Assembly: GCA_023140385.1 (NCBI GenBank)
Contig: JAGLLT010000008.1
Span: forward strand, 1-50,134
Direction: 5' to 3'
Origin: Candidatus Omnitrophota bacterium
GTDB lineage: Bacteria; Omnitrophota; Gorgyraeia; JAGLLT01
Length of the DNA: 50,134 bases
Position 1 is the stretch's first letter. Every line of letters begins with the position of its first letter. A program made the position numbers. Shown piece after piece: positions 12,001-30,000 of this stretch.

Positions 12001-15000
12001 CGGGGTCAGGCACTGAAACGTGAAATAGATTGACAAAGGTATAAATCTCAAAAACGTCCTTCCTCAACCCTATCCTATATATTCTTGATTTTGCCCCGAA
12101 TGACAATTAACCGTTATCCACCCACGAGGAGGGACACCTATGTCCCACCTCGTAGGTGGGACAGCGGGTGTAATTCACTTGCTTTTTGGGATAGTCTTTG
12201 GTATAAATAGATGTGTTGGGTGGGTTGAATCTTGAGAGGATGAGAACTTAAGAAAGGAAAAAGATTATGTATAGACCGGAAATAAAAGTATTAGACTGTA
12301 CTATCAGGGATGGGGGGCTCATTAATAATCACAACTTTGACCACAAATTCGTTAAAGATGTTTATAGGGCTATTTCTGCTTCAGGGGTAGACTATATTGA
12401 ATTGGGCTACAAAAATTCTAAAGAGCTTTTTTCGTCCGAGGAATACGGTTATTGGAAGTTCTGTGAAGATGACGAAATTGAAAAAATCAAAGAGGGTGTT
12501 GAGTCTAACGCAAAAGTAGCAGTTATGGTAGATGTTGGCCGCGTGAATTTAGATGACGTGAAGCCGGCTTCCGAAAGCCCGGTTGATATGATTAGAACGG
12601 CTACTTATGTAAAAGATATTGATAAAGCTATATTTATGGCTAATCATTTTTATGAAAAAGGATATGAGACTACGCTTAATATTATGGCCATTTCCCGCGA
12701 CAGAGGTCTAGAGCTAACGGATGCCCTGAAGCAGATAGAAAAAGAAAGCCACGTAGTAGCTGTCTATATAGTTGATAGTTTCGGCGCCTTGTATCAGGAA
12801 ACGACTGAAGAGCTGGTTAAAAGATACAAGAGTATATTAAGGAACAAGGAAGTGGGTTTTCACGGCCACAACAATCAACAACTTGGTTTTGGTAATACCA
12901 TTGAAGCCATTATTCATGGCGCCAACTATCTTGATGCTACAATTTACGGCATAGGCCGCGCGGCCGGCAACTGCCCGCTAGAACTATTAGTTGGTTTCTT
13001 AAAGAATCCAAAGTTTGATATACGCCCTATTTTAGACTTGATTTCAAAAGAATTTATTCCCCTAAGAGAGAAGATGGAATGGGGATATATCATTCCTTAC
13101 GCTATCTCAGGTATTATGGGTGAACATCCAAGGGCTGCCATGGCTCTTCGAAAAAGCGATAAGAAAGAAAATTATCGCGAGTTTTATGAAAGCCTGACTA
13201 ATACCGGACTTGATTAATCATGGACATTAATCAATTCAAGCAGCTTCCTATAATGGGAATACTGCGCGGAATTGATGAAAAAGCTATTGAGCCGCTCACC
13301 GAAAGCATTATTGCCTCCGGCCTAAAGACGGTTGAGATTACCATGAACACCAATGGCGCTGCCGGGTTAATCCGGAAGATGGCCGAGGTGTCAAAGGGCC
13401 GCCTGACTATTGGGGCAGGTACAGTGCTTACCCCTGACGTCCTAAAAGAGGCAATTGATGCCGGAGCTACCTTCATAGTTTCACCTACCTTAATTAAAGA
13501 TGTAGTTGAATATTGCGCGAAAAACAGTATACCTGTTTTTCCGGGAGCACTTACCCCTCAGGAAATATATAATGCCTGGAATATGGGAGCCGCGATGGTC
13601 AAGGTCTTTCCGGCTAAATTCTTCGGGCCGGCCTACTTTAAAGAAGTCAAAGCTCCTTTTAATAATATAGAGCTTTTAGCCTGCGGCGGAGTTAATAAGG
13701 ATAATATAAAAGAGTTTTTTAATAATAAAGCCTCGGCTGTAGCCTTCGGAGCAAGTATCTTTAAGCAGGATTTAATTAAAGAAGGCAGATTTGAAGAGAT
13801 AGCAGAAGCAATAACCGCATTAATTAAGGCGTATAAAGCTGATTGATAGCATTTAAGATCTCTCACCCGTCTTTGACGAGTTCGAGATCCAATTTGTTTG
13901 TTAGTGTGTACTTAAAATATCTCTCACCGGCCTTTGGCAGGTTCGAGATCCAATTTGTTTGTTAAAATTGTACCTAAAATATCTCTCACCCGTCTTTGAC
14001 GAGTTCGAGATCCAATTTGTTTGCTAAAATTGTACAAATTGGAGAGATGCCAGAGCCCGGTTTATCGGGGCCGCCTCGAAAGCGGCTGTCCGCTTTGCGG
14101 ACCGGGGGTTCGAATCCTCCTCTCTCCGCCATTCTGCTTCGCCAAGCTACTTTCGTGTTTGGCTTCGCAGGAATTGGCCTTTTGGTAAAAGTATGTATAT
14201 TGTATATATCCTTGTAAGTAGAAAAGATTATAGCCGTTATTATATAGGTATTACGCAAGATTTAAATAGGCGGTTAAGGGAGCATAATAGCGAGCGCGCT
14301 GCTTACGCTAAAAGATATGCTCCATGGGAAATAGAAACTTATATAAGCTTTAAGAATAAACGCCTTGCCGAAGAGTTTGAAAAGTATTTAAAAGCAGGCT
14401 CCGGACATGCTTTTTTAAAAAGAAGGCTTATATAGAATAAAAGGCAAAGTAGAATGGTGATTATAAACAGGAAAGAGGGTTTTGGGGGAAGTAGTATTTT
14501 ATCACAATAAAGTGATACCTATTATAATAGAGAAAGAATTGATTAATGAAAGCAGAAAATAGTATTCCCGCATTAAAAATCGGTAATTTGGAAGCTCGGG
14601 TTCCCATAGTTCAGGGAGGTATGGGGGTTGGTATTTCGGGTGCCAACCTGGCCTCCGCGGTCGCCAATGAAGGAGCCATAGGAGTAATTTCATCTGTGGG
14701 ACTGGGGATATTTGATAGTGATGTAAAAACTAGTTTTGCCGAAGCTAATAAGCAGGCCTTAATTGATGAAATCAGGCGAGCTAGAAGCATGACCAAGGGT
14801 ATTTTAGGTGTGAATATTATGCTTGCTCTTACCGATCATGCCAAGCATGTAAGGGCGGCAATCGATGAAAAAATCGATATAGTTTTTCTTGGCGCCGGGC
14901 TCCCTCTAAAAAATTTTGTAGATATGTCAATCAGTGAACTTAAAAAATTACACACAAAATTCGCGCCCAAGGTTTCTTCCGCCAGGGCCGCGGATCTTAT

Positions 15001-27000: not shown

Positions 27001-30000
27001 AAACAGACTTTGTAGTTCCCCGCTCCCTCGGTATCATAAGGCACTTAGCAGAACAACAAATCTTGCGCCCATAATAGCTTCCTCCTTCGCTAAAGCTTCC
27101 GCCTTCGCTCTAAAGCTACGGCGGACGGGGCGGCGGACGGGACGCTATGGCTTAAGTAGAAAATTCACAGATGCGCCCATAGCTCAATTGGACAGAGTAG
27201 CGGTCTACGAAACCGTTGGTTCCCCGTTCGAATCGGGGTGGGCGCGCCACCGTACCATTCGCAAAATTTTTAAATTTTGCTCAGGTACGGTGCGCGGCAC
27301 AGGGTTAGTTTAGTGTTGAGTATGTCTAATACAGAGATTAGTCTGGTACAGAGGCGTGTCCCGTACCCGAAAGCATTTGAGTGGTACGGGGAGGATTAAA
27401 AATGTATTTTGTTTATGTACTTATAAGTAAAAAGGATAAGGCTTTTTATATTGGTTTTACGGAAAATGTTGAAAAGAGATTGAGTGAACACAATAGAGGC
27501 GAGGCGGTAAGCACCAAGTCAAGAAGGCCGCTTGTATTGATGTATTATGAGGCGCACTTATCGAAGATAGACGCATTGAGAAGAGAAAGGTATTTTAAAT
27601 CTAGTAAGGGAAGAACTACGTTAAAGCAAATGCTCTGCGAGAGTTTGAGAAGCGGTTTATAATTGATAAAGATGAATGATGAATATTATATGCGGGAGGC
27701 GCTGAAGCTTGCCGTTGAAGCTTTTAAGGCGGATGAAGTGCCGATGGGGGCGGTGATAGTACATAAAGATAGAATTATTGCCAAAGCCCACAATCAAATA
27801 AAGACCCTAAAAGACCCCACGGCTCACGCTGAGATGATTGCCATTACTCAGGCGGCCAGTTATCTTAAAAACGAACGCCTCATTGATACTGTGATGTATG
27901 TAACCATTGAACCTTGCGCGATGTGTATGGGCGCCTTGATACTGGCCAGAGTTAACAGGCTTGTTTACGGAGCGGATGACAGTAAAGCCGGCGCCTGCGG
28001 TTCGGTGATGGATTTATCAGATAATAAAAAATTAAATCACAGCATAGAGGTTAAAAACGGCATTCTTGAAGATAGCTGCCGTGATATTATACAAGAGTTT
28101 TTTAAATTAAAAAGAAAGAAGATCCTTCGCTGAAGAAGCGGTGAAAAGCAATTATAACATGGAGAGGTGCGAGAGCGGCTTAATCGGCGCGCTTGGCCAC
28201 CGCCTATGGCGGGGTCCCGCTCTCTTCATTGAAGATACTTCTTTCGGAGAAGCGGTGAAAAGCGAAACAAGAACTATGTTTTACGTTTATATCTTGAAAA
28301 ATAGTGAAAGCAAATATTATACTGGAATGACATCTAAGCCCCCTGAAGCCAGATTAAAAGAACATAATTCTAATGCAAATAAGTGGACAAAAAATAAAGG
28401 TCCTTGGGGTCTTATTTATGCAAAAGCTTTTGAAACAAAAAAAGAAGCTTGGTTAAGAGAGCGTCAGATTAAAAAATATAAAGGCGGAAGTGCCTTTAAA
28501 GAATTAATCCGGAGAGGTGCGTGAGCGGCTTAAACGGCACGCTTGGCCACCGCCTATGGCGGGATCCCGCTCTCTTCATTGAAGATACTTCTTTCGGAGA
28601 AGCGGTGAAAAGCAATTATAACATGGAGAGGTGCGTGAGCGGCTTAAACGGCACGCTTGGAAAGCGTGTGTACTTAACGGTACCCTGGGTTCGAATCCCA
28701 GCCTCTCCGCCAGCCTAATCCCATAAGCAGTTAATTCCCTTGACGTTATATATAAAAGTAGTAAAATCAAGGTGTTAACTGCTTTTTGTATTTTTATATA
28801 AATCTTGCATATTTTTATGTTTTTTGAGACTTGTGACACGAAAATGACACGTTATAGCAAATAATAGTTTAACCTAAGGGAGGTTATTAATGGATGGTTA
28901 TGATGCTGCGTTTGTAGCCCCCTGCACATAGACTTCCCTTATTAACAAGTTGACTACCGAAGTTAACGTAGTCACTAAAAATATTTCCAACATAATGTCT
29001 ATGGTAGAAAAAAGCTGGTCTCAACAAAAACTCGCTCAGGAAGCAGGATTATCCTTTAATGCAATAACAAAAATTGAACAGGGACTAGCAAAATATCCAA
29101 CACTAAAAACTCTTAGCAAATTGTCTAATGTTTTTCAAATTGGCATAGATGAATTAGTTGGAAGAGGAAAAACAAATTTTATTAGGATTAAAAATGGAAA
29201 ATTATGATAATACTCACAAAATCTTAACAAAAACTGGACCTATTAGAAAAGGCTTCGATTATCAAGATGCTTGTGCTGCCTTCTTGTTTGTAAAATGGCT
29301 TAGGTACCCAGCAGAAAAAAAATGGGTTAAATTGGAAGCAAAAGAGTGTGGCTTTTTGGATGACATTGTTTTTGTAAGTAAGGATAATACACTATTTCTA
29401 AAACAAATTAAGTATTCATGTCATCCAGAAACCCCGCAAGATGAATGGAGCTTGGAGTCAATATTAAAAGAACCACAAGGGAAAAAAACCAAAAGACAGT
29501 CTTTATTTAAAAGATGGTTTCTGTCTTGGCAGGAATTTCGAGAAAAAAAGTCATTTCGCGAAGTAAAGGCAGAATTACTAACCAATCGAAAAGCCTCTGA
29601 AAACATAATTAATGTTGCTGAAATGTGTGATAACTCTACGGCAATAATTATTGATATCAAAAAGCTAAAAAAATTGTCTCCCGAGCATTATCAAGAGATG
29701 CTTAGGCAAATAAAGCCCTACAAAAAGAAGCATTTAAGGACTTTTTTTAATAATTTTAAATTTAATTTTGACCACTATTCTTTAGAAAGAATGTGGACTC
29801 AAACAGAAGTGATTTTTAAAGAACTGGGTGGGAGTGGTGGTGCATGGTTAGCTTTTAAGGAAAAAATTAGAGAGTGGGCTATAGAACAAGATAAGCCATC
29901 TAAAGAAGGCTTAATAAAAATAGAGGACTTAAGAAGTGCGGCAGGGTGGGAAAAATTAAAAGCGTTAAATCAAGAATTTTCAATGCCAGACGACTTTGAG

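What a model noticed while it worked through the whole genome (the two positions that open the first line are those of the whole stretch)
14041..28712. Minimal stand-alone GIY-YIG nuclease genes sit co-directionally inside tRNA gene clusters
The genome has six 79-121 aa proteins that are nothing but a GIY-YIG catalytic domain (g00088, g00198, g01285, g01438, g01449, g01451). Four lie within 0-153 bp of a tRNA gene and on the same strand (tRNA-Gln C5:11-84; tRNA-Ser, tRNA-Arg, tRNA-Ser on C56), against 3.4% of all genes. In other Omnitrophota the best GIY-YIG hit of 9 of 29 genomes lies within 300 bp of a tRNA gene (11 of 29 within 460 bp), always co-oriented. These mini-nucleases are parts of tRNA transcription units: homing-type selfish genes that target tRNA clusters, or factors acting on tRNA precursors.
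Evidence so far: Distances and background, 50 of 1477 genes within 300 bp of a tRNA; 4 of 6 GIY-YIG genes, binomial p about 2e-5. PF01541 search in 30 relatives, one locus per genome; ARAGORN on the 29 loci: tRNAs within 19-154 bp in L155, L157, L161, L163, L165, L170, L172, L177, L179, at 348 bp in L159, and 43 bp from a second copy in L164; strands agree in all 11 and in all 4 cases here. Control: 0 of 23 loci of like size fetched from relatives for unrelated queries hold a tRNA gene.
(Added by a program. Inside this text positions count along the whole contig: contig position 1 is position 1 of the stretch shown here. "Call 12" and the like, gene names such as g00115 and contig names such as C1 are that model's own, and its searches are not shown. 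The text may have been shortened before it was handed on; [...] marks where a part breaks off. The agent that wrote the report below was given it as the finding of a first reader that could run no searches.)

Follow-up and report, generated by a model that had tools for sequence, protein, structure and literature searches.

The report
Tiny nuclease cassettes inside tRNA genes
Three genes in this window, each encoding only an 80-86 residue DNA-cutting domain, sit tightly against tRNA genes and look like very small selfish gene cassettes that settle inside tRNA genes in many bacterial phyla without destroying the tRNA.

Summary
The genome has six GIY-YIG-only genes. Four lie 0-152 nt from a co-oriented tRNA gene (random expectation 0.6%).

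In 80 loci from the same phylum, 24 have a tRNA within 300 nt, 23 of them co-oriented. In 72 loci of the closest protein clade, spread over about ten phylum labels, 48 do, all co-oriented. They cover 20 anticodons, and tmRNA at 137-151 nt.

New evidence favours the mobile, selfish reading:
- Gene g2 is missing at the same site in a same-genus and a same-family genome. Gene g3 occurs only here.
- Many cassettes are flanked by partial copies of the tRNA. The copies end in the D, anticodon or T loop, and a working tRNA is kept.
- A palindromic hairpin that starts at the tRNA's CCA end heads most cassettes.
- Proteins 82-83% identical sit beside different tRNAs and under different phylum labels.
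- None of 56 neighbouring ORFs is an integrase or transposase.

The protein is an SLX1/UPF0213-type nuclease domain. The closest precedent is phage SegB, which cuts tRNA genes. Cleavage, expression and the transposition mechanism are untested. I rate this a new variant of a known kind.

The parts
14041..14131 (+). tRNA-Ser(cga), host tRNA of cassette g1
   Evidence: ARAGORN.
14129..14177 (+). Hairpin whose 5' arm starts at the CCA end of the tRNA (leader of g1). Copies also lie at 9149-9243 and 44893-44969.
   Evidence: Sequence; RNA fold; other copies. A like hairpin follows tRNA-Arg in G157, where there is no GIY gene.
14193..14435 (+). g1: GIY-YIG-only gene of 80 aa, lying downstream of its tRNA (type a)
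   Evidence: PF01541 E 6.9e-15; own-genome search.
26114..26291 (+). Hairpin repeats of the GTACC/GGTAC kind after tRNA-Ser(gct) 26023-26116. The last one (26238-26291) is 87% identical to the hairpin before g2, but here it precedes an unrelated 260-aa ORF. It is a leader without a nuclease gene.
   Evidence: Repeat family D5; blast; hairpin scan.
27173..27249 (+). tRNA-Arg(acg), host tRNA of cassette g2
   Evidence: ARAGORN.
27247..27401 (+). Leader of g2. A first hairpin starts at the CCA end of the tRNA, and a last hairpin overlaps the ribosome-binding site.
   Evidence: Sequence; fold -57.5 kcal/mol; perfect 9-bp arm starting 2 nt before the tRNA end. The leader is kept in G083, G154 and G155.
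27402..27662 (+). g2: GIY-YIG-only gene of 86 aa (type a). Present in G154, G155 and L081. Absent in G151, G083 and G157.
   Evidence: PF01541 E 3.9e-16; filled and empty sites; model pLDDT 92.
27663..28133 (+). tadA (tRNA adenosine deaminase), part of the conserved backbone tRNA-Arg(acg) - tadA - tRNA-Ser(gga) into which g2 and g3 are inserted. The probable ATG is at 27672.
   Evidence: Pfam MafB19-deam 5e-42 and dCMP_cyt_deam_1 2e-30; the backbone is seen in G151, G083, G154 and G157.
28134..28160 (+). A: 27 nt that normally lie just upstream of tRNA-Ser(gga), first copy
   Evidence: Repeat family D3; sequence.
28161..28196 (+). B1: copy of tRNA-Ser(gga) positions 1-36, ending in the anticodon loop. 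It differs from B2 and B3 at 3 sites. At all 3 it matches the tRNA of the same-genus genome G151, and two of the sites form a covarying pair. It is probably the old resident allele.
28197..28263 (+). C1: two hairpins, followed by the first 16 nt of A
   Evidence: 103-nt repeat D4 at 96% identity; fold.
28276..28524 (+). g3: GIY-YIG-only gene of 82 aa. Its stop codon lies inside B2. It is found only in this genome among those compared.
   Evidence: PF01541 E 9.4e-17; g3 is absent at this site in G151, G083, G154 and G157.
28511..28546 (+). B2: second copy of tRNA positions 1-36, identical to the working tRNA
   Evidence: 1-36, 100%.
28547..28624 (+). C2 (two hairpins) plus the second copy of A
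   Evidence: D3, D4; 98.5% identical to C1.
28625..28712 (+). Working tRNA-Ser(gga)
   Evidence: ARAGORN; Rfam RF00005 at 52.8 bits.

Best explanation
g1, g2 and g3, together with the gene on contig C5, belong to a widespread clade of 80-95 residue SLX1/UPF0213-type GIY-YIG nuclease genes. These genes live as very small selfish cassettes within the footprint of tRNA and tmRNA genes.

A cassette has three parts: one or two strong palindromic hairpins, a ribosome-binding site, and the ORF. I recognised no promoter of its own, and no integrase or transposase lies nearby. It is co-oriented with the tRNA in all but one case.

The cassette sits in one of two positions:
- Type a: just after the 3' end of the tRNA. 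The first hairpin pairs with the CCA end.
- Type b: between the tRNA's promoter and the tRNA. The stop codon lies 0-16 nt before the tRNA or inside it.

Insertion comes with a partial duplication of the tRNA gene, so one intact tRNA is always kept. Type b carries a 5' piece ending in the D or anticodon loop. Type a carries a 3' piece starting in or just after the T loop.

What is shown: the geometry, the duplications and where they break, gain and loss between close relatives, near-identical proteins beside different tRNAs and under different phylum labels, and the protein fold.

What is inferred:
- The ORF is expressed by read-through from the tRNA promoter.
- The nuclease cuts tRNA-gene DNA at loop-coding positions, as phage SegB does in the T loop. 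Recombinational repair then copies the cassette into the broken gene, which is homing. Illegitimate or unequal repair produces the partial tRNA duplications and nested units such as the one at g3.
For: Association
- 4 of 6 genes in this genome (P 2e-8).
- 24 of 80 loci from the phylum, 23 on the same strand.
- 48 of 72 loci of the g2/C5 clade, all 48 on the same strand. These loci carry Omnitrophota, Patescibacteria, Verrucomicrobia, Gamma- and Deltaproteobacteria, Bacteroidetes, Planctomycetota and Nitrospirae labels.
- The neighbours within 300 nt cover 20 anticodons. tmRNA genes lie 137 nt (L090) and 151 nt (L092) upstream of the GIY gene; L092 is confirmed by Rfam.

Gain and loss at one site
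- The backbone tRNA-Arg - tadA - tRNA-Ser is conserved.
- g2 is present in G000, G154 and G155. It is absent in G151 (same genus), G083 (same family) and G157. In G083 the leader is kept, the ORF is gone and the last hairpin is cut short.
- g3 occurs only in G000.
- The site spoVG - tRNA-Gln(ttg) - glmU is empty in this genome and filled in L129, L133, L139 and L146.

Duplications
- Of 18 distinct type b loci, 10 have a clear 5' copy of the tRNA upstream of the ORF.
- The copy covers positions 1-36 at 100% identity in L133, L134 and L146, and positions 1-31 in L139.
- In L021, L129, L077 and own C5 the copy is split by an insert in the D loop. L066 and L004 also carry a copy.
- g3 carries two such copies.
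- 5' pieces end at -2 to +1 of the last anticodon base (8 cases), at -6 (1 case), or at tRNA positions 13-24, i.e. the D arm (10 cases).
- 3' pieces start 2-5 nt after T54 in 9 of 17 cases and 7-9 nt after it in 5.
- Type a loci have 11-34 nt copies of the 3' end after the ORF in L084, L122, L127 and L140.
- In this genome, partial copies lie beside 2 of the 4 tRNAs with a GIY gene, against 1 of 35 other tRNAs.

Shared leader
- 43 of 52 distinct type a spacers have a perfect hairpin arm of at least 6 bp that starts in the last 4 nt of the tRNA or within 2 nt after it. Among tRNAs in the same loci without a GIY gene, 20 of 69 do.
- The motif CCRTGAAYC...GRTTCAYGG occurs at 18 distinct sites in the loci, and once in the whole own genome, before the C5 gene.

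Mobility across hosts and targets
- L127 (Met) and L125 (Gln) are 83% identical.
- L126 (Patescibacteria label) and L127 (Gammaproteobacteria label) are 82% identical.

Protein
- Pfam assigns PF01541.
- The nearest solved sequences are UPF0213 proteins 1zg2 (4e-16) and 1ywl, then SLX1.
- The model has pLDDT 92. SLX1 chains match at TM 0.60-0.66, best rmsd 2.2 A, 30-35% identity.
- Tyr, Gly, Arg, His and Glu columns are invariant in 12 sequences.

Neighbours
- 0 of 56 flanking ORFs in 12 type b loci is an integrase or transposase.

Precedent (passages of PMC13096335 read)
- SegB cuts inside tRNA genes at a motif that equals the T-loop complement.
- It lies beside tRNAs in 386 phage homologues.
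- It generates tandem tRNA-segB repeats that are joined at the 5' end of the tRNA.
Against: - There is no biochemical or expression evidence.
- g1 and g2 themselves have no detectable tRNA fragment beside them.
- 56 of the 80 phylum loci and 24 of the 72 clade loci have no tRNA within 300 nt. Some of these sit at contig ends.
- 8 of the 18 type b loci lack a clear 5' copy. L109 and L138 have none. L078 is doubtful. L074 and L041 reach the contig end. L094, L095 and L107 have a whole tRNA upstream instead.
- CCA-anchored hairpins also follow tRNAs that have no GIY gene: 20 of 69 in the loci and 15 of 38 in this genome. They may be a host feature.
- An unrelated cargo, a response-regulator gene, sits between tRNA-His and a 36-nt copy of its 3' end on C9. 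The nuclease therefore need not be the agent of insertion.
- An 85-residue protein has no evident DNA-binding domain, so how it would find its target is unexplained.
- The working tRNA that is kept still contains the presumed target.
- Both locus samples were chosen by score, not at random.
- Phylum labels of metagenome bins can be wrong.
- Trees of proteins this short are weak.
Confidence: 0.68

Rival explanations
1. Host-serving factor. The mini-nuclease is a housekeeping, structure-specific enzyme that is co-transcribed with tRNAs. It acts on tRNA precursors, or on R-loops and cruciforms formed at heavily transcribed tRNA genes.
For: - Orientation is strictly shared with the tRNA (71 of 72 loci).
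- The fold resembles SLX1, a nuclease for branched DNA.
- Some clades keep the same tRNA partner across genomes: Gln(ttg) 4 of 4, Val(tac) 3 of 3, Glu(ctc) 3 of 3.
- g2 lies between tRNA-Arg(acg) and tadA, the gene of the enzyme that edits that tRNA (the substrate relation is recalled).
Against: - The genes are dispensable. g2 is absent in a same-genus and a same-family genome, and g3 is unique to this genome.
- Copy number runs from 0 to 13 per genome.
- Near-identical proteins lie beside different tRNAs.
- Partial tRNA copies mark insertion events.
- No GIY-YIG enzyme is known to me to process RNA (recalled).
Confidence: 0.12
2. Passive safe harbour. The flanks of tRNA genes are recombination hot spots and tolerated landing sites, used by integrases or other machinery acting in trans. 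Small ORFs of any kind accumulate there, and the GIY-YIG genes are simply common cargo.
For: - A response-regulator gene lies between tRNA-His and a 36-nt copy of its 3' end on C9.
- An unrelated 140-aa ORF occupies the g3 site in G151.
- Genes for 23S-IVS proteins and a PD-(D/E)XK gene lie in tRNA clusters.
- A 16-kb integrase island abuts tRNA-Ser(gga).
- Hairpin modules occur without an ORF.
Against: - The enrichment is specific to particular GIY-YIG clades and very tight: 0-16 nt or 43-170 nt, on the same strand.
- 5'-half duplications are not what tyrosine integrases leave (recalled).
- 0 of 56 neighbouring ORFs is a recombinase.
- The leader and the ORF travel together across phyla.
Confidence: 0.1
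3. tRNA dosage or repair device. As SegB does in phage T6, the nuclease promotes local amplification or replacement of tRNA genes. This would help the cell, or a resident element, against tRNA-cleaving toxins and defence systems.
For: - SegB-driven tandem tRNA repeats give a selective benefit (PMC13096335, passages read).
- Some loci have two whole tRNA copies around the gene: L094 and L131 with Met, and L152.
- The working tRNA-Ser(gga) beside g3 carries an allele typical of other families, while the remnant B1 carries the allele of the family's own members.
- Defence genes lie nearby.
Against: - Most loci keep exactly one intact tRNA. The extra pieces are truncated and interrupted, so they add no dosage.
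- No link to any specific tRNA-targeting system was seen.
Confidence: 0.06
4. Chance, or an artefact of assembly or gene calling.
For: All genomes are fragmented metagenome bins, and repeats can be misassembled.
Against: - P is 2e-8 in this genome.
- The pattern recurs in 72 independent loci.
- Contigs from three public runs cover the junctions B1-C1, C1-g3-B2 and B2-C2 without a single difference.
Confidence: 0.01

Closest known systems
SegB of phages T4 and T6: a free-standing GIY-YIG homing endonuclease in the tRNA gene cluster (PMC2330249, abstract seen in a search listing; PMC13096335, passages read)
   Same: - It is a GIY-YIG nuclease gene that stands free among tRNA genes.
- It lies beside tRNAs of many isotypes.
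- It cuts inside tRNA genes at the T-loop sequence.
- It produces repeats in which the 3' end of the nuclease gene is joined to the 5' end of a tRNA. This is the same junction seen in the type b cassettes here.
   Different: - SegB is a phage protein. From memory it is about 220 residues and has a DNA-binding part.
- The genes here are cellular and 80-95 residues long, from a different branch (UPF0213/SLX1).
- They are essentially absent from phage records: 3 weak hits in 50,697 records and no PHROG family.
- They carry a hairpin leader anchored on the CCA end and leave partial tRNA duplications.
UPF0213 proteins (BH0048, 1zg2; EF2693, 1ywl; E. coli YhbQ recalled) and the nuclease domain of eukaryotic SLX1
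   Same: These are the best sequence and fold matches, and the catalytic columns are the same.
   Different: - SLX1 has a further zinc-finger domain and needs SLX4 (recalled).
- No tRNA linkage of the housekeeping UPF0213 genes is known to me.
- In this genome the C7 gene, which falls in a clade without tRNA neighbours, may be of that housekeeping kind.
Genomic islands and prophages integrated in tRNA or tmRNA genes by tyrosine integrases
   Same: - They use tRNA and tmRNA genes as targets.
- They preserve the tRNA through a duplicated segment.
- Their breakpoints fall at the anticodon loop and the T loop (the sublocation rule is recalled from Williams 2002, which I did not read here).
   Different: - The cassettes have no integrase (0 of 56 neighbouring ORFs).
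- The element is about 0.3-0.45 kb.
- Duplications of the 5' half occur.
- A true integrase island lies on the other side of the same tRNA-Ser(gga) in this window, for comparison.
Group I introns with homing endonucleases in bacterial tRNA anticodon loops
   Same: The insertion point is in the anticodon loop, and a GIY-YIG nuclease can be the cargo.
   Different: - There is no ribozyme. The leaders are 60-155 nt, and Rfam finds nothing.
- The tRNA is kept by duplication, not by splicing.
tRNA-gene-targeting retrotransposons of yeast and Dictyostelium (PMC5006619 and PMC5911963, listing only)
   Same: They use tRNA genes as safe landing sites in compact genomes.
   Different: They are eukaryotic, move through RNA, and are guided by RNA polymerase III factors.

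Membership tests
GIY-YIG nuclease superfamily (PF01541) | Match to the family model above its curated cut-off | tested here: met
   g1 scores 55.5 bits, g2 59.5 and g3 61.5, against a cut-off of 22.6.
GIY-YIG nuclease superfamily (PF01541) | Conserved catalytic residues: Tyr of GIY, Tyr-x-Gly, Arg, His and the metal-binding Glu (roles recalled) | tested here: met
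   Y16, G18, R26, H30 and E62 are invariant and Y5 is nearly invariant in 12 sequences.
GIY-YIG nuclease superfamily (PF01541) | Three-stranded sheet flanked by helices | tested here: met
   The model has pLDDT 92 with strands 2-9, 15-20 and 44-52. Foldseek returns UPF0213, SLX1 and, more distantly, I-TevI.
UPF0213 / SLX1 branch | Closest to UPF0213 and SLX1 rather than to I-TevI or UvrC | tested here: met
   Sequence search: 1zg2 4e-16, 1ywl 2e-13, SLX1 5e-9. Fold search: SLX1 TM 0.60-0.66 at 30-35% identity, against I-TevI TM 0.50 at 13% identity.
UPF0213 / SLX1 branch | SLX1 proper: a C-terminal zinc-finger domain and the partner SLX4 | tested here: not met
   The proteins are 80-93 residues long and consist of one domain.
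Free-standing homing endonuclease genes (SegB type) | The nuclease gene stands alone between conserved genes and is present or absent at the same site in relatives | tested here: met
   g2 and g3 show filled and empty sites. So does the tRNA-Gln(ttg) site.
Free-standing homing endonuclease genes (SegB type) | Site-specific cleavage of the allele that lacks the gene, and biased inheritance | not testable with these tools
   This needs enzyme assays and crosses.
Free-standing homing endonuclease genes (SegB type) | A separate DNA-binding domain that gives site specificity | tested here: not met
   There are no residues beyond the catalytic domain.
Integrase-borne tRNA islands | A tyrosine or serine recombinase gene within the element | tested here: not met
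   0 of 56 ORFs around 12 type b loci is a recombinase. None lies between 13.2 and 28.7 kb of the window.
Integrase-borne tRNA islands | A direct repeat of a 3' segment of the tRNA at the far end of the element | tested here: inconclusive
   3' copies follow the ORF in L084, L122, L127 and L140. None is seen at g1 or g2. The 5'-half copies do not fit this family.
Group I intron in a tRNA gene | A ribozyme core, and exons that join into one tRNA | tested here: not met
   Rfam finds only tRNA and tmRNA at E up to 0.1 in 10 loci. An intact tRNA stands beside each interrupted copy.
Transposon / MITE | Defined ends with target-site duplication of fixed length | tested here: inconclusive
   Hairpin modules lie alone in anticodon loops (L074 428-502, L129 2861-2935). 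They share 2-4 nt with the flank, by my reading. The length is not fixed, and the shared bases are also part of the hairpin stem.

The most novel reading that the evidence does not exclude
The hairpin modules and the mini-nuclease together form a new kind of mobile element that finds its target by shape rather than by sequence. It inserts at the single-stranded loops and the 3' tail of the tRNA cloverleaf, as formed by tRNA-gene DNA. This would explain four things:
- Proteins 83% identical sit beside different tRNAs, and a 66% identical pair sits beside tmRNA (L092) and tRNA-Arg (g2).
- Inserts and breakpoints fall in the D loop, the anticodon loop, the T loop and at the CCA end.
- An 85-residue SLX1-like domain needs no DNA-binding domain.
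- Hairpin-only copies exist as non-autonomous partners.

The stop codon lying inside the tRNA would then couple nuclease synthesis to tRNA processing.
Probability: 0.25. Interest if true: 0.88.

Novelty: new variant of a known kind. Interest (0 to 1): 0.72.

Why it matters
If this reading is right, tRNA and tmRNA genes of many poorly known bacterial phyla, Omnitrophota and the Patescibacteria among them, host one of the smallest autonomous selfish elements. It is about 0.3-0.45 kb: one nuclease domain plus a hairpin. It would be a cellular counterpart of phage SegB.

It would explain several things:
- stray tRNA halves and 'pseudo-tRNAs' in genome annotations;
- the many unnamed 'GIY-YIG family' mini-genes;
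- part of the turnover of tRNA alleles between lineages.

It also offers a minimal nuclease whose target may be a DNA shape, which would interest both nuclease mechanism and tool building. The proposed tests are simple: cleavage of tRNA-gene DNA, and a homing assay.

Tried and rejected
- RNA evidence: no run on record as RNA was listed for 26900-28800, so co-transcription could not be examined.
- Laying contigs of four DNA runs: these gave no population-level empty site. The joints at 28187 to 28674/28682 carry other letters between the two sides and look like other organisms' tRNA-Ser genes. The call served only to confirm the repeat junctions.
- Promoter and terminator scan: a good promoter-like site lies before tRNA-Ser(gct) (25971-25999). 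None lies between tRNA-Arg and g2. The counts are near the shuffle expectation, so I did not use this as evidence.
- Rfam: at gathering scores on the window and at E up to 0.1 on 10 loci, no family matches the leaders.
- Other libraries: NCBIfam gives only sub-threshold hits, PHROGs none, and phage records 3 weak hits. The genes are therefore not a phage family.
- The 12-sequence alignment A1 was too diverse for the search for related loci. I used a 3-sequence alignment instead.
- Group I intron idea: rejected. The leaders are too short, there is no ribozyme, and an intact tRNA lies adjacent.
- LAGLIDADG guess for the 140-aa ORF at the g3 site of G151: Pfam gives nothing.
- Fixed-length target-site duplication for the hairpin modules: not established. 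The 2-4 shared bases are also stem bases.
- Whether hp1 mimics the T loop: not tested.
- Literature: five searches found no description of cellular mini GIY-YIG genes linked to tRNA genes. The term sets were GIY-YIG with tRNA gene, anticodon loop and mobile; YhbQ, COG2827, UPF0213 and YazA; GIY-YIG with 'downstream of', 'adjacent to' or 'next to' tRNA; free-standing homing endonuclease with Patescibacteria; GIY-YIG with tmRNA, Candidate Phyla Radiation and selfish. The library lacks most subscription journals. The 2006 phylogenomic survey of the superfamily is only recalled and could not be checked.

Full report
CHECK OF THE OBSERVATION

The window is contig C56 of a 1.50-Mb, 57-contig genome. 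It holds four + strand tRNA genes. It also holds three ORFs that match only the GIY-YIG catalytic domain: g1 14193-14435, g2 27402-27662 and g3 28276-28524.
- g1 starts 61 nt after tRNA-Ser(cga).
- g2 starts 152 nt after tRNA-Arg(acg).
- g3 ends 100 nt before tRNA-Ser(gga).

The genome has six such genes. A fourth one, on C5, runs 15 nt into tRNA-Gln(ctg). The genes on C44 and C7 have no annotated tRNA nearby.

A randomly placed 250-nt segment lies within 153 nt of a tRNA on the same strand 0.62% of the time. Four of six genes doing so has P about 2e-8. Only the word 'clusters' is generous for this window.

THE PATTERN IN OTHER GENOMES

PF01541 matched in 150 of 151 genomes of the phylum, with 572 matches and 0-13 per genome. 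I fetched the 80 best-scoring matches outside this genome, so the sample was chosen by score and is not random.
- 24 of 80 have a tRNA within 300 nt. 23 are co-oriented; L007 is the exception.
- In 18 the tRNA lies upstream and in 6 downstream.
- Within the same loci, tRNA density is 0.55 per kb inside 300 nt and 0.039 per kb beyond.

A tree of 93 proteins (partial matches left out) shows that the link belongs to certain clades. One clade holds g1, g2, g3, the C5 and C44 genes, and every case where the gene abuts the 5' end of a tRNA. Other clades each go with one tRNA: Gln(ttg) 4 of 4, Val(tac) 3 of 3, Glu(ctc) 3 of 3. The clade of the C7 gene has no tRNA neighbours.

A scan of one genome per species, using a 3-sequence alignment of the g2/C5 kind, returned 76 loci. 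Their labels include Omnitrophota, many Patescibacteria lineages, Verrucomicrobia, Gamma- and Deltaproteobacteria, Bacteroidetes, Planctomycetota and Nitrospirae.
- Of the 72 loci with a near full-length match (4 dropped), 48 have a tRNA within 300 nt, all on the same strand.
- Over both samples the neighbours cover 20 anticodons.
- tmRNA genes lie 137 nt (L090) and 151 nt (L092) upstream of the GIY gene; L092 is confirmed by Rfam.
- Two pairs of loci are the same record fetched twice (L021 = L132, L074 = L115).

ANATOMY

There are two geometries.
- Type a: tRNA, then 43-170 nt, then the ORF. g1 and g2 are of this type.
- Type b: the ORF stops 0-16 nt before the tRNA or inside it. There are 18 distinct loci, including C5. 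g3 is a nested form of this type.

Hairpins head both types.
- In 43 of 52 distinct type a spacers, a perfect arm of at least 6 bp starts within the last 4 nt of the tRNA or within 2 nt after it, so the CCA end is paired. For tRNAs in the same loci with no such gene, the figure is 20 of 69, and several of those carry the same hairpin without an ORF.
- The commonest form, CCRTGAAYC...GRTTCAYGG, occurs at 18 distinct sites in the loci. It occurs once in this whole genome, before the C5 gene.
- In type b the same hairpin follows a truncated tRNA copy. A second hairpin comes next; its stem sequence differs from locus to locus but stays perfectly paired. Folds run from -34 to -52 kcal/mol.
- Rfam knows none of these structures.

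PARTIAL tRNA COPIES

Ten of the 18 type b loci have a clear copy of the 5' part of the tRNA upstream of the ORF.
- Positions 1-36 at 100% identity in L133, L146 and L134. L134 is a bin labelled gammaproteobacterial, with tRNA-Leu.
- Positions 1-31 in L139.
- Copies split by a 45-65 nt hairpin insert in the D loop in L021, L129, L077 and C5.
- Further copies in L066 and L004.

The other eight type b loci are as follows:
- L094, L095 and L107 have a whole tRNA upstream.
- L074 and L041 reach the contig end.
- L078 is doubtful.
- L109 and L138 have none.

The breakpoints cluster.
- 5' pieces end at -2 to +1 of the last anticodon base (8 cases), at -6 (1 case), or at tRNA positions 13-24, i.e. the D arm (10 cases).
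- 3' pieces start 2-5 nt after T54, inside the T loop, in 9 of 17 cases, and 7-9 nt after it in 5. The remaining 3 include cross-matches between Ser isoacceptors.

Type a cassettes are followed by 11-34 nt copies of the tRNA 3' end in L084, L122, L127 and L140. Hairpin pairs also lie alone in the anticodon loop of otherwise continuous extra tRNA copies (L074 428-502, L129 2861-2935).

In this genome, only 3 of 39 tRNAs have partial copies nearby. Two are the partners of g3 and the C5 gene. The third is tRNA-His on C9.

THE g3 LOCUS

It reads, in order:
- A: 27 nt of upstream flank, 28134-28160.
- B1: tRNA positions 1-36, 28161-28196.
- C1: two hairpins plus the first 16 nt of A, 28197-28263.
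- g3, whose stop codon lies in B2 (28511-28546).
- C2 plus A, 28547-28624.
- The working tRNA, 28625-28712.

B1 differs from B2 and from the working tRNA at three sites. At all three it agrees with the tRNA of the same-genus genome G151, and at two of them also with same-family G083. Those two sites form a covarying pair. The working copy matches the allele seen in G154 and G157, which belong to other families. This suggests that the 5' half next to the cassette came in with it.

Contigs from three public DNA runs cover the B1-C1, C1-g3-B2 and B2-C2 junctions without a difference.

GAIN AND LOSS

The order tRNA-Arg(acg) - tadA - tRNA-Ser(gga) is kept in G151, G083, G154 and G157.
- g2 is present in G000 and G154, and also in G155 (rows) and in L081, where it is 71% identical and lies beside the same tRNA.
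- G151 (same genus) has an unrelated 105-nt spacer at the g2 site.
- G157 has a 57-nt hairpin spacer there.
- G083 (same family) keeps the leader but lacks the ORF, and its last hairpin is cut in the loop. This looks like decay.
- g3 is absent in all four genomes. G151 has an unrelated 140-aa ORF at that site.

The site spoVG - tRNA-Gln(ttg) - glmU is empty in this genome (C51). It holds type b cassettes in L129, L133, L139 and L146.

WHO MOVES IT

None of 56 ORFs flanking 12 type b loci is an integrase or transposase. The flanks are housekeeping genes.

Proteins 82-83% identical lie beside tRNA-Met and tRNA-Gln (L127 and L125), and in bins labelled Patescibacteria and Gammaproteobacteria (L126 and L127). 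The tmRNA-linked L092 protein is 66% identical to g2. The target is therefore not one tRNA identity.

THE PROTEIN

- The closest solved sequences are the UPF0213 proteins 1zg2 and 1ywl, followed by SLX1.
- The model of g2 has pLDDT 92. It matches SLX1 at TM 0.60-0.66, best rmsd 2.2 A and 30-35% identity. I-TevI matches only at TM 0.50 and 13% identity.
- The catalytic columns are invariant.
- The family is essentially absent from phage records and from PHROGs.

HOW IT LIKELY WORKS

The features shown above fit a selfish cassette that lives in tRNA genes and keeps the tRNA intact by duplication.

The rest is inference.
- Orientation, spacing, the lack of any recognised promoter between tRNA and ORF (weak evidence), and stop codons inside tRNAs all suggest expression from the tRNA promoter.
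- The branch of the family (SLX1, a nuclease for branched DNA) and the breakpoints at loops suggest that the enzyme cuts tRNA-gene DNA at loop positions.

The phage enzyme SegB gives a tested precedent (PMC13096335, passages read).
- It cuts inside tRNA genes at a motif equal to the T-loop complement.
- It lies beside tRNAs of many isotypes.
- Through recombination it builds repeats in which the 3' end of the nuclease gene is joined to the 5' end of a tRNA.

RIVALS AND LIMITS

- A host-serving role is hard to square with loss in a same-genus genome.
- A passive safe-harbour reading has real support. There is a response-regulator gene between tRNA-His and a 36-nt copy of its 3' end. There are hairpins without ORFs. 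A true integrase island lies beside tRNA-Ser(gga).
- A dosage or repair role in the manner of SegB is possible.

No RNA data and no biochemistry were available. The samples were picked by score. Bins may be mislabelled, and short-protein trees are weak. Five literature searches found no account of this cellular system, but the library is incomplete.

Noticed in passing
window 28686-44918: A 16-kb integrase-borne island lies directly 3' of tRNA-Ser(gga). The last 27 nt of the tRNA (28686-28712) recur exactly at 44892-44918.

Inside the island are:
- an HTH gene;
- a 2016-aa NACHT/STAND NTPase with a weak Cap4-nuclease match (29158-35208);
- a gene like a pPIWI-associated nuclease (35564-36850);
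- a tyrosine integrase (38525-39580);
- a DNA methylase (39654-40499);
- a GmrSD restriction enzyme (41036-42898).

About 92 nt at 28709-28800 recur at 35383-35474 (98%; the alignment extends the likeness to about 125 nt), so there may be two islands in tandem.
   Followed up: partly
window 27173-28133: tadA follows tRNA-Arg(acg), the tRNA it edits (substrate relation recalled). The order tRNA-Arg(acg) - tadA - tRNA-Ser(gga) is kept in G151, G083, G154 and G157.
   Followed up: partly
G000 contig C9 about 1480-2147 (minus strand): A single-domain response-regulator gene sits between tRNA-His and an exact 36-nt copy of that tRNA's 3' part, 553 nt downstream. This is a tRNA-bounded mini-insertion whose cargo is not a nuclease.
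   Followed up: partly
window 13846-14030: Three tandem 61-62 nt units lie just upstream of tRNA-Ser(cga). One like unit lies upstream of tRNA-Ser(gga) in G083. It may be a shared promoter region of the Ser tRNAs.
   Followed up: no
window 9149-9243 and 44893-44969; G000 C4:8040-8087: Extra copies of the g1-type hairpin lie away from tRNA genes. Two are in tandem at 9149-9243. One at 44893-44969 directly follows the tRNA-Ser 3' remnant.
   Followed up: partly
L158 (G151:C182) 3016-3435: A 140-aa ORF with no family match occupies the place of g3, between tadA and tRNA-Ser(gga), in the same-genus genome.
   Followed up: partly
L066 7680-8147; L078 1669-2049 and 4479-4862; L078 3696-4220: Genes for 23S-rRNA-intervening-sequence proteins (PF05635) and a PD-(D/E)XK endonuclease lie in the same Pro-Arg-His tRNA clusters that hold GIY-YIG cassettes.
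   Followed up: no
G000 C44:11100-11560: The C44 GIY-YIG gene has no annotated tRNA. By eye, stretches resembling tRNA flank it: a D-arm/anticodon-like piece upstream and a piece like a T arm plus acceptor just after the stop. It may be a decayed tRNA site.
   Followed up: no
G000 C7:43466-43800: The C7 GIY-YIG gene falls in a clade without tRNA neighbours. It ends a few bases before an ORF whose start looks like a MiaB/RimO-type methylthiotransferase (by eye; not scanned).
   Followed up: no
window 26292-27074: A 260-aa ORF follows tRNA-Ser(gct). It has only a weak LSM-domain hint (E 2e-4, below cut-off). The same hairpin that precedes g2 precedes it. It is conserved at 70-90% DNA identity in G151, G083 and G155.
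   Followed up: no
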